Shown in pieces: positions 30,001 through 33,000 of a DNA stretch of 64,000 nucleotides. Position 1 is the first letter of the stretch. Each line of letters begins with the position of its first letter. The position numbers are program-made. Origin of the DNA: Perna viridis (lineage: Eukaryota); the NCBI GenBank assembly GCA_037379345.1, contig CM074511.1, positions 26,790,862 to 26,854,861 of the forward strand, read 5' to 3'.

Positions 30001-33000
30001 AGAAAGGCGTATTTATACAGTGGTAACAGTGTAAAATTTTAAAATAAAAAAAAGAAAGAAAAAAGAAAAAAAAAAGAAAAAAAACATTTTTCAGTTTGTT
30101 TTGAATCAACGTCAAGGTTTTGACGTAACAAAGTAAATTGAACAAGACTAGTACAGAAAAACTTCACCGTAAAAAGACTCCGTTATCCGTCATATATGTC
30201 GAAGGTGACATCGAATAAACACTGGTGCATTAAATAAAGACAATATAATGTAGAGCGAAGCATTTGCTGAACAAATAACTGTTACGGAAAGTTTTGTTTT
30301 AACATCTCCAGCAAGCTCTTGAATTGCTTAACGAGTACCTTTAAAATGAGGCTAGTCGTGTCGGACAAGTACAAAGCAAGGTATAATTATGTAACTGTTC
30401 ATCTAATGGCTGTCATACCGTATGACCTAAACCACAATTAATCAACCGGTCAATCACTTAATATTTATATATGAATCGTATTTGTATATATCGGACATAG
30501 TCCAGTCAAGTGAAGTTTACCCATTTTTCCTGAAAAACTAAGACAAGAACTGCACTGTAAGGTGCATGATTAAAGTTGTGTTCGGACAAATAGGGGAAAG
30601 AATTTTTAACTTAATTCGTAATGCTAATTTAAGAGACACGTGATTACCGGATACGCTTACACCAATGCCGCTTTGATTGATTACCAATCAAAACAGTAAT
30701 CAACAATTGACAGCCGACAATCAATATCGATATCGGTGCCTTGACTAACCTAGAAATGACAAGGAGTAAATTCCGTCATGTTTATAAAACTACAAAGAAT
30801 TTACAATTAGGCATCACTATTGTATCCTACATCTACGACCATGTCTGAGAAAACAGTCAAAGATCCAAGACTCTCACTGTATATTGCTGAGTGTAAGTTC
30901 CGGAAGTCATGCGAACAGATCAAACTAATAACCAGTCGTCTAGACTTATTACAAATGAGGTATGACAGAGCCAAGAGAGATGACCTCAAGAGTTTCCGTT
31001 ATTCCTTACGTCTCCAATTGGCTGCAACAGAAGGCACTAGAAACATGTACTACGAGTATGCAGTAAGACAAGCTACACAAGTTGCCCGCCTAAAGACACA
31101 AGTCAAGAAATCACAACAAACCAAGACAGAACAGATAGAAACACGAGATGCAGAGCCTGTCGAATGTCAAAATTAAGATGGCTGATATTGTGTCACAGAA
31201 ACAGAACACAGATGCACAGCACATGTTGCTGAAAGGCTCTTGTCAGAGCCAAGCAAATATTTCAAAAAGATTTTTTATTGATGTACACGTCATGCCTAAC
31301 TCTGAAACCCACACATTCCCTTCAAAGATGCCTGTTTTAAAACGAGTCCTAAACTTTTATTTACATAATTCATGCCACCGGCCAGCTCCAACCTGAAAAA
31401 AAAATACGCAGAAAAACATAACCACCTATGATACTTCATCAAAAGAAAAATAAAAAGAAGGAAACGTAAGAGAACTTATATGAGAAAGACGTATATATAC
31501 AGTGGTAACAGTGTAGAATTTTAAAATAAAAAAGAAAGATAAAAAAGAAAAAAAACATCTTTTAGTTTGTTTTGAATCAACGTCAAGGTTTTGACGTAAC
31601 AAAGTAAATTGAACAAGACTAGTACAGAAAAACTTCACTGTTAAAAGACTCCGTTATCCGTCATATATGTCGAAGGTGACATCGAATAAACACTGGTGCA
31701 TTAAATAAAGACAATATAATGTAGAGCGAAGCATTTGCTGAACAAATAACTGTTACGGAAAGTTTTGTTTTAACATCTCCAGCAAGCTCTTGAATTGCTT
31801 AACGAGTACCTTTAAAATGAGGCTAGTCGTGTCGGACAAGTACAAAGCAAGGTATAATTATGTAACTGTTCATCTAATGGCTCTCATATGACCTAAACCC
31901 AATTAATCAACCGATCAATCACTTAATATTTATATATGAATCGTATTTGTATATATCGGACATAGTCCAGTCAAGTGAAGTTTACCCATTTTTCCTGAAA
32001 AACTAAGACAAGAACTGCGCTGTAAGGTACGTGCTTAAAGTTGTGTTCGGACAAATAGGGGAAAGAATTTTTAACTTAATTCGTAATGCTAATTTAAGAG
32101 ACACGTGATTACCGGGTACGCTTACACCAATGCCGCTTTGATTGATTACCAATCAAAACACTAATCAACACTTGACAGCCGACAATCAATATCGATATCG
32201 GTGCCTTGACTAACATAGAAATGGCAAGGAGTAAATTCCGTCATGTTTATAAAAGTACAAGAATTTACAATTAGGCATCACTATTGTATCCTACATCTAC
32301 GACCATGTCTGAGAAAACAGTCAAAGATCCAAGACTCTCACTGTATATTGCTGAGTGTAAGTTCCGGAAGTCATGCGAACAGATCAAACTAATAATCAAT
32401 CGTCTAGACTTATTACAAATGAGGTATGACAGAGCCAAGAGAGATGACCTCAAGAGTTTCCGTTATTCCTTACGTCTCCAATTGGCTGCAACAGAAGGCA
32501 CTAGAAACATGTACTACGAGTATGCAGTAAGACAAGCTACACAAGCTGCCCGCCTCAAGACACAAGTCAAGAAATCACAGCAAAGCAAGACAGAACAGAT
32601 AGAAACACGAGATGCAGAGCCTGTCGAATGTCAAAATTAAGATGGCTGATATTGTGTCACAGAAACAGAACACAGATGCACAGCACATGTTGCTGAAAGG
32701 CTCTTGTCAGAGCCAAGCAAATATTTCAAAAAGATTTTTTATTGATGTACACGTCATGCCTAACTCTGAAACCCACGCATTCCCTTCAATGATGCCTGTT
32801 TTAAAACGAGCCCTAAACTTTTATTTACATAATTCATGCCACCGGTCAGCTCCAACCTGAAAAAAAAAAACGCAGAAAAACATAACCACCTATGATACTT
32901 CATCAAAACAAAAATAAAAAGAAAGAAACGTAAGAGAACTTATATGAGAAAGGCGTATTTATACAGTGGTAACAGTGTAGAATTTTAAAAGAAAAAAAAA

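What the first reader, a model, noticed from the sequence alone, without database searches (positions are those of the whole stretch)
30841..31176. Unrecognised 111-aa basic helical-hairpin (coiled-coil) protein kept intact in 22 of 22 full copies
Seen: heptads L13-A16-F20-S23-I27-I30-L34-L37-Y41-A44, a short KRDD turn, a second amphipathic helix (L49, L56, L60, Y70, A74, V81, L84, V88) and a polar C-terminal tail; 23 K+R versus 15 D+E; no signal peptide or TM segment. No full copy has a stop or frameshift, while indels are common in the spacers. The disrupted copy 0 reads KACEQ instead of KSCEQ, so the family is older than the current amplification. Inference: an antiparallel two-helix protein acting by dosage, e.g. 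as an adaptor, inhibitor or nucleic-acid/chromatin binder. LRLQLAATEGTRNM is only faintly reminiscent of HR1-type hairpins. Caveat: copies are so similar that intactness alone is weak evidence of selection.
Basis: partly seen in the sequence, partly recalled or inferred. Interest (0 to 1): 0.7.

Follow-up and report, generated by a model that had tools for sequence, protein, structure and literature searches.

The report
Amplified gene for unnamed helical-hairpin protein
A mussel-like genome carries 22 intact head-to-tail copies of a small gene whose two-helix protein belongs to a large, strongly conserved but never described family of molluscs, annelids and ribbon worms; its function is still unknown.

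Summary
ORF 30841-31176 (+) encodes 111 aa and recurs intact in 22 of 22 units of a ~1.49 kb head-to-tail array (29411-63390).

Intactness inside the array says little. An overlapping 82-aa ORF is also intact in 22 of 22 units. The ORF varies as much as the spacer outside the A-rich tract.

The real evidence is comparative:
- 16 mytilid relatives are 73-83% identical.
- A profile search finds 824 clusters at E<=1e-3.
- All 14 organism-named species are spiralians. All are labelled hypothetical or uncharacterized.
- Fourteen residues are shared by at least 93% of 316 distant relatives.

AlphaFold2 gives an antiparallel helical hairpin for the window protein and for a nemertean relative.

Pfam, PDB sequences, Foldseek (PDB, BFVD), PHROGs, NCBIfam and the ESM Atlas give no significant match. 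The HR1 likeness is generic.

Every unit has two CCAAT boxes and a TATAAAA box. 19 of 22 have an AATAAA.

Best reading: a real, recently amplified gene. Its hairpin is probably an interaction or oligomerisation module. That mechanism is inferred, not shown.

The parts
29411..63390 (+). Head-to-tail array. It holds truncated copy 0, 21 complete ~1.49 kb units, and a last unit whose spacer is cut short and rearranged after 63219.
   Evidence: Units 1-21 are on average 97-98.6% identical to each other. Units 13 and 18 are identical, units 10 and 13 differ at 2 columns, and units 9 and 12 at 3.
30841..31176 (+). Copy 1 of the 111-aa ORF (the finding). Helix 1 is residues 9-47, the turn 48-49, helix 2 residues 50-103, and the rest is a polar tail.
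32305..32640 (+). ORF copy 2 (variant T31I, S32N, V81A, T94S)
33799..34134 (+). ORF copy 3 (R43S)
35290..35625 (+). ORF copy 4 (V81A)
36777..37112 (+). ORF copy 5
38276..38611 (+). ORF copy 6 (R43S)
39762..40097 (+). ORF copy 7 (R43S)
41258..41593 (+). ORF copy 8
42753..43088 (+). ORF copy 9 (C24R, at a column that 96% of distant relatives keep as C)
44245..44580 (+). ORF copy 10
45737..46072 (+). ORF copy 11
47231..47566 (+). ORF copy 12
48723..49058 (+). ORF copy 13
50213..50548 (+). ORF copy 14
51717..52052 (+). ORF copy 15
53219..53554 (+). ORF copy 16
54725..55060 (+). ORF copy 17
56220..56555 (+). ORF copy 18
57710..58045 (+). ORF copy 19
59204..59539 (+). ORF copy 20 (C24R)
60694..61029 (+). 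ORF copy 21 (D35H)
62183..62518 (+). ORF copy 22 (D35H)
30662..30688 (+). Two CCAAT motifs (30662-30666 and 30684-30688) upstream of copy 1. The same pair sits at about -179 and -157 in 22 of 22 units.
   Evidence: These are motif matches only; promoter activity was not tested.
30783..30789 (+). TATAAAA 58 nt before the ATG, present at -58 or -57 in 22 of 22 units. No ATG lies between it and the ORF start. There is an A at -3 of the ATG.
31449..31454 (+). AATAAA about 270 nt after the stop codon, present at +600 to +620 in 19 of 22 units.
31523..31560 (+). A-rich tract of unit 1 (about 55-65 nt in later units, e.g. 32987-33048). It holds most of the length variation between units.
30121..30128 (+). 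TGACGTAA just after the A-rich tract, about 715 nt before the next ATG, in 22 of 22 units.
29411..30840 (+). Copy 0, a dead copy. Its 5' end is cut off by an insertion and it has one in-frame stop. Mismatches to a canonical unit are 3.6% in the coding part, 2.9% in the 3' part and 2.0% in the spacer. Its spacer supplies the promoter-like motifs of copy 1.
28231..28615 (.). Older decayed remnant of the unit. 28365-28615 is in forward orientation (71% identity to unit positions 181-428) and 28231-28359 is inverted (77% identity to unit positions 83-210).

Best explanation
Shown. This is a real protein-coding gene, not a chance ORF on a satellite. It is the local member, probably mytilid, of a large unnamed family of small proteins. 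Organism names attached to relatives so far come only from spiralians (molluscs, an annelid, a nemertean).

The family is built on a net-basic antiparallel alpha-helical hairpin of about 80 residues. Its near-invariant signature in window numbering is F20, C24, Q26, R40, Y41, A44, R53, Y54, R57, L58, E64, G65, R67, N68, Y71, Y73, A74 and A78. A variable, mostly acidic, disordered tail usually follows the hairpin.

In this genome the gene was amplified recently into 22 intact head-to-tail units. The array is still turning over by multi-unit unequal exchange. It lies about 2.4 kb downstream of a STRIP-like gene; the older remnant begins about 1.2 kb downstream.

Inferred:
- Each unit is probably an autonomous intronless gene, with two CCAAT boxes, a TATA box, a 336-nt coding sequence and an AATAAA. 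It would give an mRNA of about 0.65-0.7 kb, so the array would raise the dose.
- The hairpin probably works as a protein-protein interaction or oligomerisation module. In helix 1 the conserved positions fall on the a, d, e and g heptad faces. In helix 2, residues 51-74 are conserved on all faces. That pattern is expected for a helix buried between its partner helix and a further helix or partner, as in a four-helix bundle made of two hairpins or a hetero-complex.
- The basic hairpin beside an acidic tail suggests electrostatic self-masking in most relatives. The mytilid proteins have nearly lost the tail.
For: Array and ORFs.

Cross-species conservation:
- 16 relatives are 73-83% identical with 39 invariant columns, and the C-terminal tail diverges.
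- Profile search: 824 50%-identity clusters at E<=1e-3 and 352 at E<=1e-10.
- Further searches give 77 and 233 proteins at E<=1e-3.
- Organism-named hits cover 14 of 14 species in Spiralia: 10 bivalves, 2 gastropods, 1 annelid and 1 nemertean.

Signature: among 316 relatives below 60% identity, the window's residue is shared by at least 93% at 14 positions and at least 84% at 4 more.

Fold:
- Window protein: pLDDT 85.3, helices 9-47 and 50-103.
- Nemertean relative: helices 71-113 and 117-160 at pLDDT about 97-98, with disordered ends.

Architecture: the core is net positive in 144 of 149 and the tail net negative in 121 of 149. The window core is +11 and its tail -3. 371 of 375 fetched relatives have a single hairpin.

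Promoter-like and poly(A) motifs: TATAAAA 22 of 22, both CCAAT boxes 22 of 22, AATAAA 19 of 22.

Tandem organisation elsewhere:
- Three consecutive accessions lie on one M. galloprovincialis contig, and several members share contigs in other assemblies.
- 4 gene models hold 2-3 hairpins.

Within the array, pN/pS is about 0.32, p = 0.04.
Against: - No transcript, peptide or interaction data were available. Contig lengths of relatives (about 535-1,100 nt) fit transcripts but also fit collapsed repeat units. P0001's longest contig is 1,489 nt, which equals the unit length.
- Inside the array the ORF is no better conserved than the spacer outside the A-rich tract: 13 of 336 variable sites against about 20 in 700 spacer columns. 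An overlapping 82-aa ORF is equally intact.
- 2 of 22 copies carry C24R at a column that 96% of relatives conserve. The whole mytilid clade departs from the family at two strongly conserved columns, 30 and 31. Some or all copies could be functionally altered.
- AlphaFold2 monomer models cannot tell a hairpin from an extended helix in an intermolecular coiled coil.
- The interaction-module reading rests only on the conservation pattern.
- 'Spiralian only' rests on the minority of hits that carry an organism name.
Confidence: 0.55

Rival explanations
1. Nucleic-acid or chromatin binder. The Arg/Tyr-rich basic hairpin would bind DNA, RNA or an acidic chromatin partner directly. The acidic tail of most relatives would compete with the ligand. 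The nearly tail-less mytilid form would bind constitutively.
For: The core is net positive in 144 of 149 relatives and the tail net negative in 121 of 149. Conserved R40, R53, R57, R67, Y41, Y54, Y71, Y73 and N68. Foldseek lists chromatin-associated hairpins (ING4/ING5 N-terminal domain, LSD1 tower), but at non-significant E values.
Against: No nucleic-acid-binding family was hit in Pfam or PDB. The conserved arginines sit at core-flanking heptad positions, which fits inter-helix salt bridges equally well. No nuclear localisation evidence exists. The Foldseek hits are generic (0 at E<=0.001).
Confidence: 0.2
2. Ampliconic conflict gene. The array would be the product of a germline arms race, with dose-dependent drive or suppression, as in other high-identity multicopy gene arrays. 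On this reading copy number itself is the selected trait.
For: 22 copies at about 98% identity, with identical units five units apart and block duplications. The family is multi-copy and tandem in other species. It is large and diversified, with 824 clusters. The mytilid clade has changed two otherwise conserved columns.
Against: The hairpin core is very strongly conserved across phyla, unlike the rapid evolution typical of conflict genes (general knowledge, recalled). No expression or sex-linkage data are available. The array sits next to an ordinary conserved gene.
Confidence: 0.1
3. Small structural protein of cilia or sperm flagella: a helical hairpin that decorates microtubule doublets.
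For: Several small helical chains from sperm and cilia doublet-microtubule structures appear in the Foldseek lists: 8iyj_V9, 8iyj_T5, 9fqr_EU and 8i7o_D4.
Against: All are at E 0.3-0.9, among at least 500 generic hairpin matches. No sequence relation was found. Axonemal proteins are usually conserved beyond Spiralia, whereas named relatives here are spiralian only.
Confidence: 0.07
4. Gene derived from a mobile element or virus and spread as a repeat.
For: High copy number, many diverged paralogues per genome, intronless appearance, and an A-rich tract at the unit end.
Against: The 1.49 kb unit holds no other conserved ORF with a family hit and no terminal repeats. The arrangement is strictly head-to-tail at one locus. 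PHROGs gave 0 of 5 and BFVD gave 0 matches at E<=0.001. No recurrent family appeared across 96 scans of family members (50, 46; the window protein was in both). The A-rich tract starts about 75-80 nt after the AATAAA, not where a poly(A) tail would begin.
Confidence: 0.05
5. Chance ORF carried by a non-coding satellite.
For: 23 of 500 shuffled units reach 111 aa. A second ORF is intact in 22 of 22 units. There is no ORF-specific conservation inside the array.
Against: Hundreds of relatives down to about 30% identity keep the same 18 signature residues and the same two-helix layout, while the tails diverge.
Confidence: 0.03

Closest known systems
Unnamed family of 'hypothetical/uncharacterized' spiralian proteins. 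Examples: Mytilus galloprovincialis VDI63792-VDI63794, Mytilus coruscus CAC5406458, Magallana gigas K1PRP6, Patella caerulea KAK6180567, Tubulanus polymorphus XP_074640406, Ruditapes philippinarum XP_060577198.
   Same: The window protein is a clear member. It is 73-83% identical to mytilid proteins and 29-48% to the rest. It has the same hairpin length and turn position and keeps all 18 signature residues.
   Different: The window and mytilid proteins have a short, nearly neutral tail instead of the usual long acidic one. They differ from the family at the strongly conserved columns 30 and 31. The gene is amplified to 22 tandem copies here.
Generic antiparallel helical hairpins of solved structures: HR1 domains of CIP4/TOCA1, ING4/ING5 N-terminal domain, ESCRT-III alpha1-alpha2 (CHMP3, CHMP1B), LSD1 tower, Rad50 and SMC arms, MacA/EmrA hairpins.
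   Same: Two antiparallel helices of about 40 residues each, with TM-score (query-normalised) 0.64-0.78 for the window model. ESCRT-III proteins also combine a basic hairpin with an acidic C-terminal part (recalled knowledge).
   Different: There are 0 matches at E<=0.001, with sequence identity 9-19%. No Pfam match to HR1, ING, Snf7 or any other family. Helices 3-5 of ESCRT-III are absent. The likeness is one of shape only.
Tandem multicopy gene arrays, such as invertebrate histone gene repeats or ampliconic germline genes like Drosophila Stellate (recalled knowledge, not tested here).
   Same: Head-to-tail units of 1-2 kb, each with its own promoter-like motifs and a small intronless ORF. 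Very high identity between units and signs of unequal exchange.
   Different: The encoded protein is unrelated to histones or CK2-beta-like proteins. No expression data exist. The array is small (about 34 kb) and lies beside an ordinary single-copy gene.

Membership tests
Unnamed spiralian helical-hairpin family (defined here by profile A2/A3) | Significant full-length profile match | tested here: met
   The window protein (as P0001) scores E 7.7e-54 with the mytilid profile (which includes it) and about 1e-32 to 1e-35 with the profiles A2 and A3, each of which also includes the window protein as its first sequence, so these scores are partly by construction. Independent support is its 29-48% pairwise identity to those relatives.
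Unnamed spiralian helical-hairpin family | Signature residues F20, C24, Q26, R40, Y41, A44, R53, Y54, R57, L58, E64, G65, R67, N68, Y71, Y73, A74, A78 | tested here: met
   All 18 are present in the commonest copy, and each is shared by 84-99% of 316 distant relatives. 2 of 22 copies have C24R. The window departs at two other conserved columns, 30 and 31.
Unnamed spiralian helical-hairpin family | Two-helix antiparallel hairpin of about 80 residues with a short turn | tested here: met
   AlphaFold2 models of the window protein and of the nemertean relative. These are predictions only.
Unnamed spiralian helical-hairpin family | Acidic disordered C-terminal tail | tested here: inconclusive
   The tail is net negative in 121 of 149 relatives. 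The window tail is 21 aa with net charge -3.
HR1 (PKN/CIP4-type Rho-binding hairpin, Pfam HR1) | Match to the Pfam model or significant structural match | tested here: not met
   0 Pfam families for the window protein even at E<=1. No HR1 hit in 96 scans of family members. CIP4 and TOCA1 HR1 appear only at Foldseek E 0.74.
ESCRT-III / Snf7 | Snf7 profile match, and helices 3-5 after the hairpin | tested here: not met
   No Pfam hit. The models show only two helices. CHMP hits are at Foldseek E 0.25-0.9.
Tubulin-binding cofactor A (PF02970) | Profile match above the gathering score | tested here: not met
   4 of 46 relatives hit at best E 0.019. The window protein has no hit.
Non-coding satellite DNA | Tandem units without a conserved coding function | tested here: not met
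   The tandem structure is met, but the ORF has hundreds of conserved protein relatives.
Autonomous tandem gene array | Each unit transcribed from its own promoter | not testable with these tools
   CCAAT, TATA and AATAAA motifs are present in 22, 22 and 19 of 22 units. No transcript data were available.

The most novel reading that the evidence does not exclude
The hairpin would be an undescribed, deeply conserved protein domain confined to Spiralia, among the larger animal families without any curated model (at least 824 clusters at 50% identity). Its helix-2 segment (residues 51-74) would form a conserved complex with a partner still to be found. In mytilids a nearly tail-less form, freed of the acidic self-masking tail, would have been amplified into an actively recombining 22-copy array because its dose matters, possibly in the germline or early embryo.
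Probability: 0.25. Interest if true: 0.65.

Novelty: new variant of a known kind. Interest (0 to 1): 0.45.

Why it matters
Two things make this worth attention.

First, the ORF on what looks like a satellite is a real gene of a family that current curated resources do not name. Pfam, NCBIfam, PHROGs and PDB gave no match. Five full-text searches (two by accession or locus tag, three by keyword) found no paper describing the family. Yet the family keeps 14 residues almost invariant between molluscs, annelids and nemerteans. A family model would annotate hundreds of 'hypothetical' proteins. It would also give spiralian cell biology a candidate lineage-specific module.

Second, the array is a clean natural example of very recent gene amplification. 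Some units are identical and whole blocks have been duplicated. Dose, copy-number variation and expression can therefore be compared descriptively between individuals and species.

If transcription and translation are not found, it falls back to an ordinary young tandem duplication of a hypothetical gene.

Tried and rejected
Searches that gave nothing useful:
- Pfam on the window protein (E<=1), on 50 members (A2) and on 46 members (A3, E<=5): no recurrent family. There was one stray Na_trans_assoc hit and TBCA in 4 of 46.
- PDB sequence search with profiles A1 and A2 at E<=10: best E 0.53 (S100A12) and 0.15 (BAP31 coiled coil, tropomyosin). Read as coiled-coil noise.
- Foldseek against PDB with both models and against BFVD with the first: 0 matches at E<=0.001.
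- PHROGs and NCBIfam: 0 of 5 proteins each.
- ESM Atlas, twice: best scores 0.79 and 0.81, below the level of a lead.
- Rfam (gathering threshold) and ARAGORN over the whole window: 0 hits each.

Literature:
- No paper holds K1PRP6 or any of six other accessions or locus tags.
- Two keyword searches gave nothing relevant in their listings.
- For Wu et al. 2020 (PMC7441323) I read the outline and section 6. The paper screens 37 spiralian-specific genes, but the list is in a supplement I could not open. Whether this family is among them is unknown.

Ideas rejected or left open:
- HR1, ESCRT-III, ING and TBCA membership were rejected (see the membership tests).
- A retrogene origin of the unit is left open but weak. 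The A-rich tract begins about 75-80 nt after the AATAAA.
- Intactness as evidence of selection is rejected, because ORF2 is intact in 22 of 22 units and copy 0 shows no extra conservation of its coding part.

Other limits:
I then scanned ten separate open frames instead.
- Not searched: metagenome contigs and viral contigs (closed), and genome contigs (holds only bacteria and archaea, not used).
- No eukaryotic DNA collection was available, so nucleotide-level dN/dS and synteny stayed unchecked.
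Full report
**1. What is in the sequence**

The window has no N and is AT-rich, with 29-39% G+C in 2-kb bins. It is not human: the nearest organism-named relatives of its proteins are Mytilus species.

From 29411 to about 63390 it holds a head-to-tail array of a ~1.49 kb unit. 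The ORF of the finding runs from the ATG at 30841 to the stop at 31174-31176. It is 111 codons long.

The same ATG context occurs 22 times, spaced 1464-1506 bp, and all 22 ORFs are open. 13 of 22 copies encode the same protein. The other 9 copies make up five variants:
- R43S in 3 copies
- C24R in 2 copies
- D35H in 2 copies
- V81A in 1 copy
- T31I, S32N, V81A and T94S together in 1 copy

The highest 19-residue hydropathy mean is 0.06, so there is no membrane segment.

**2. Edges of the array**

Copy 0 (29411-30840) is a dead copy. It is cut at its 5' end by an insertion and has one in-frame stop.

The inserted stretch, about 28860-29330, has 51% G+C against about 35% around it. The stretch just after it (29358-29410) matches 7896-7948 on the other strand, so it is probably a dispersed repeat.

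Left of it lies an older remnant of the unit. It is 71-77% identical to the unit and partly inverted (28231-28615).

The last unit is intact up to 63219. Rearranged fragments follow until 63390. The whole array is therefore inside the window.

About 2.4 kb upstream of the array (about 1.2 kb upstream of the older remnant), on the same strand, lie the last exons of a STRIP-like gene. Open frames 23241-23558, 25629-25898 and 26712-27053 match DUF3402 at E 1e-11, 6e-30 and 5e-6. I searched these frames one by one and did not join them.

**3. Is intactness meaningful?**

Not by itself.
- Units 1-21 are on average 97-98.6% identical to each other. Units 13 and 18 are identical, units 10 and 13 differ at 2 columns, and units 9 and 12 at 3. 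This shows recent duplications of blocks at lags of 3 and 5 units.
- The ORF has 13 variable sites in 336 columns. The spacer outside the A-rich tract has about 20 in 700 columns.
- 48 of the 51 gap columns lie in the A-rich, low-complexity part.
- A second ORF of 82 codons (31148-31396 in unit 1) overlaps the end of the first and is also intact in 22 of 22 units. It has no family match. This is a built-in control showing that open frames survive here simply because the copies are young.
- Copy 0 shows no extra conservation of its coding part: 3.6% mismatches against 2.9% and 2.0% elsewhere.
- By length alone, 23 of 500 dinucleotide shuffles of a unit give an ATG-ORF of at least 111 aa.
- The only internal hint of constraint is 7 non-synonymous against 6 synonymous variable sites (pN/pS about 0.32, p = 0.04). 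The variants are not independent events.

**4. Comparative evidence**

This settles that the gene is real.
- A word-indexed search found 17 proteins among 18 candidates. These are the window's own ORF plus 16 relatives at 73-83% identity, some named as Mytilus galloprovincialis hypothetical proteins.
- In their alignment 39 columns are invariant, substitutions are conservative, and the C-terminal tail diverges freely.
- A profile of these sequences, scored against 1.84 billion cluster representatives, found 824 proteins at E<=1e-3, 352 at E<=1e-10 and 2 at E<=1e-30.
- Two further profile searches returned 77 and 233 proteins at E<=1e-3.

Every hit that carries an organism name is spiralian. 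There are 14 species:
- Ten bivalves: Mytilus galloprovincialis, M. coruscus, M. edulis, Magallana gigas, Mya arenaria, Dreissena polymorpha, Mactra antiquata, Tegillarca granosa, Ruditapes philippinarum and Mercenaria mercenaria
- Two gastropods: Patella caerulea and Nucella lapillus
- One annelid: Lamellibrachia satsuma
- One nemertean: Tubulanus polymorphus

These come, with lineages checked. All are labelled hypothetical or uncharacterized. One metagenome record is called 'mitochondrial fission protein ELM1', which I take for a stray label.

**5. Family signature and architecture**

316 relatives are below 60% identical to the window protein over the core. Among them the window's own residue is shared by:
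- at least 93% at F20, C24, R40, Y41, A44, R53, Y54, R57, E64, G65, R67, N68, Y73 and A74
- at least 84% at Q26, L58, Y71 and A78

The window and its mytilid kin depart at two otherwise strongly conserved columns, 30 and 31.

371 of 375 fetched relatives hold one hairpin. Four gene models hold two or three, likely neighbours in tandem. Several relatives share contigs, including three consecutive accessions on one M. galloprovincialis contig.

The core is net positive in 144 of 149 representatives. The C-terminal tail is net negative in 121 of 149, with a mean charge of about -9. The window protein has a core of +11 and a 21-residue tail of -3.

**6. Fold**

- Window protein (17-row alignment): AlphaFold2 gives helices 9-47 and 50-103, mean pLDDT 85.3, pTM 0.65, and pLDDT above 90 over about residues 10-90.
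- Nemertean relative (60-row alignment): a disordered N-terminus, helices 71-113 and 117-160 at pLDDT about 97-98, and a disordered acidic tail.

A monomer model cannot exclude an extended helix in an intermolecular coiled coil.

**7. Comparison with what is known**

Nothing significant was found.
- Pfam: 0 families for the window protein. There is no recurrent family in 96 scans of family members (the window protein appears in both sets). TBCA matched 4 of 46 at best E 0.019.
- PDB sequences: best E 0.15-0.5, coiled-coil noise.
- Foldseek against PDB (two models) and BFVD: 0 matches at E<=0.001. The lists hold generic hairpins: EmrA/MacA, CHMP/ESCRT-III, ING4/5, Rad50/SMC arms, LSD1 tower, HR1 of CIP4/TOCA1 at E 0.74, and small sperm-axoneme chains.
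- PHROGs and NCBIfam: none.
- ESM Atlas: no lead.
- Rfam and tRNA scans of the window: none.

Full-text searches for seven accessions or locus tags found no paper. Two keyword searches listed nothing relevant. For Wu et al. 2020 (PMC7441323) I read the outline and section 6.

**8. Gene anatomy of a unit**

These are motif matches, not tested function.
- Two CCAAT boxes at about -179 and -157, in 22 of 22 units.
- TATAAAA at -58 or -57, in 22 of 22 units.
- No ATG between the TATA box and the ORF start, and an A at -3 of the ATG.
- AATAAA about 270 nt after the stop, in 19 of 22 units.
- An A-rich tract about 75-80 nt further on, followed by TGACGTAA in 22 of 22 units.

This predicts an unspliced mRNA of about 0.65-0.7 kb. 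Many relatives sit on contigs of 535-1,100 nt. That fits transcripts, but collapsed repeat units would look similar. The window ORF's own longest database contig is 1,489 nt, which is the unit length.

**9. How it most likely works**

Shown: a conserved gene family, a predicted hairpin, and a recent tandem amplification with motifs of autonomous genes.

Inferred: the hairpin is an interaction or oligomerisation module.
- In helix 1 the conserved positions fall on heptad positions a, d, e and g: F20, C24, Q26, I27, L34, L37, Q38, R40, Y41 and A44.
- In helix 2 nearly every position from 51 to 74 is conserved.
- A helix conserved all round is usually buried between its partner helix and something else, such as a second hairpin (four-helix bundle) or another protein.
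- The basic core beside an acidic tail suggests self-masking in most relatives. The mytilid proteins have almost lost the tail, and here that form is present in 22 copies.
- I hold the gene and family part at about 0.9 and the mechanism at about 0.35.

Rivals, each with its evidence in the rival section: a direct nucleic-acid or chromatin binder, an ampliconic conflict gene, a ciliary or flagellar structural protein, a mobile-element gene, and a chance ORF. The last is contradicted by section 4.

**10. Novelty and verdict**

The sequences are already in public databases as hypothetical proteins, so the protein is not new as a sequence. What appears undescribed is the family as such, its signature, its breadth and this 22-copy array.

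The fold is a common one and tandem gene arrays are a known phenomenon. I therefore rate it a new variant of a known kind, with moderate interest.

Unchecked, and bearing on the claims:
- any expression data
- nucleotide-level dN/dS and synteny, because no eukaryotic DNA collection was available
- the closed collections metagenome contigs and viral contigs
- profile-profile searches against Pfam and PDB
- the closed supplement named above

Noticed in passing
31148-31396 (+) and the same offset (+307 from each ATG) in all units: A second ORF of 82 codons overlaps the 3' end of the 111-codon ORF in another frame. It is intact in 22 of 22 units, with 3 synonymous and 7 non-synonymous variable sites. 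Its only Pfam row is noise (NT-C2, E 0.056).
   Followed up: partly
23241-23558, 25629-25898, 26712-27053 (+): Exons of a STRIP-like (striatin-interacting protein, DUF3402) gene end about 2.4 kb upstream of the array (about 1.2 kb upstream of the older remnant), on the same strand. They match profile positions 151-192, 336-403 and 404-444 of 454. The exons were searched singly and not joined.
   Followed up: partly
3014-4180 (+): A 388-aa open frame, long for this AT-rich sequence, with no Pfam family above cut-off. Its only row is Paramyxo_P at E 0.052, well below the gathering score, which I take for chance.
   Followed up: no
28860-29410: An inserted stretch cuts off the 5' end of copy 0. 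Its G+C is 51% over 28860-29330, against about 35% around it. The stretch just after it (29358-29410) matches 7896-7948 on the minus strand (85% over 53 bp). It is probably a dispersed (SINE- or MITE-like) repeat. No tRNA-like part was found.
   Followed up: partly
28231-28615: An old, decayed remnant of the unit lies left of the array. It has a forward piece and an inverted piece meeting at about 28360. The locus therefore held a family member long before the present amplification.
   Followed up: partly
units at 42753-44244 / 47231-48722 / 54725-56219 and 44245-45736 / 48723-50212 / 56220-57709: Block structure inside the array. Units 13 and 18 are identical over about 1.49 kb. Units 10, 13 and 18 differ from each other at 0-2 columns. 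Units 9 and 12 differ at 3, units 12 and 17 at 7, and units 9 and 17 at 10. This means two-unit blocks were copied at lags of 3 and 5 units.
   Followed up: yes
42753-43088 and 59204-59539: Two of the 22 copies carry C24R, at a column that 96% of 316 distant relatives keep as cysteine. These copies may be impaired.
   Followed up: partly
15992-16186, 16892-17014, 27855-27990: Short tandem repeats unrelated to the array: 54 bp x 3.6, 43 bp x 2.8 and 66 bp x 2.0.
   Followed up: no
30807-30989 (-) and the same place in other units: A 60-aa TTG-start ORF lies antisense to the 5' part of the gene and is repeated with the unit. I take it for chance.
   Followed up: no
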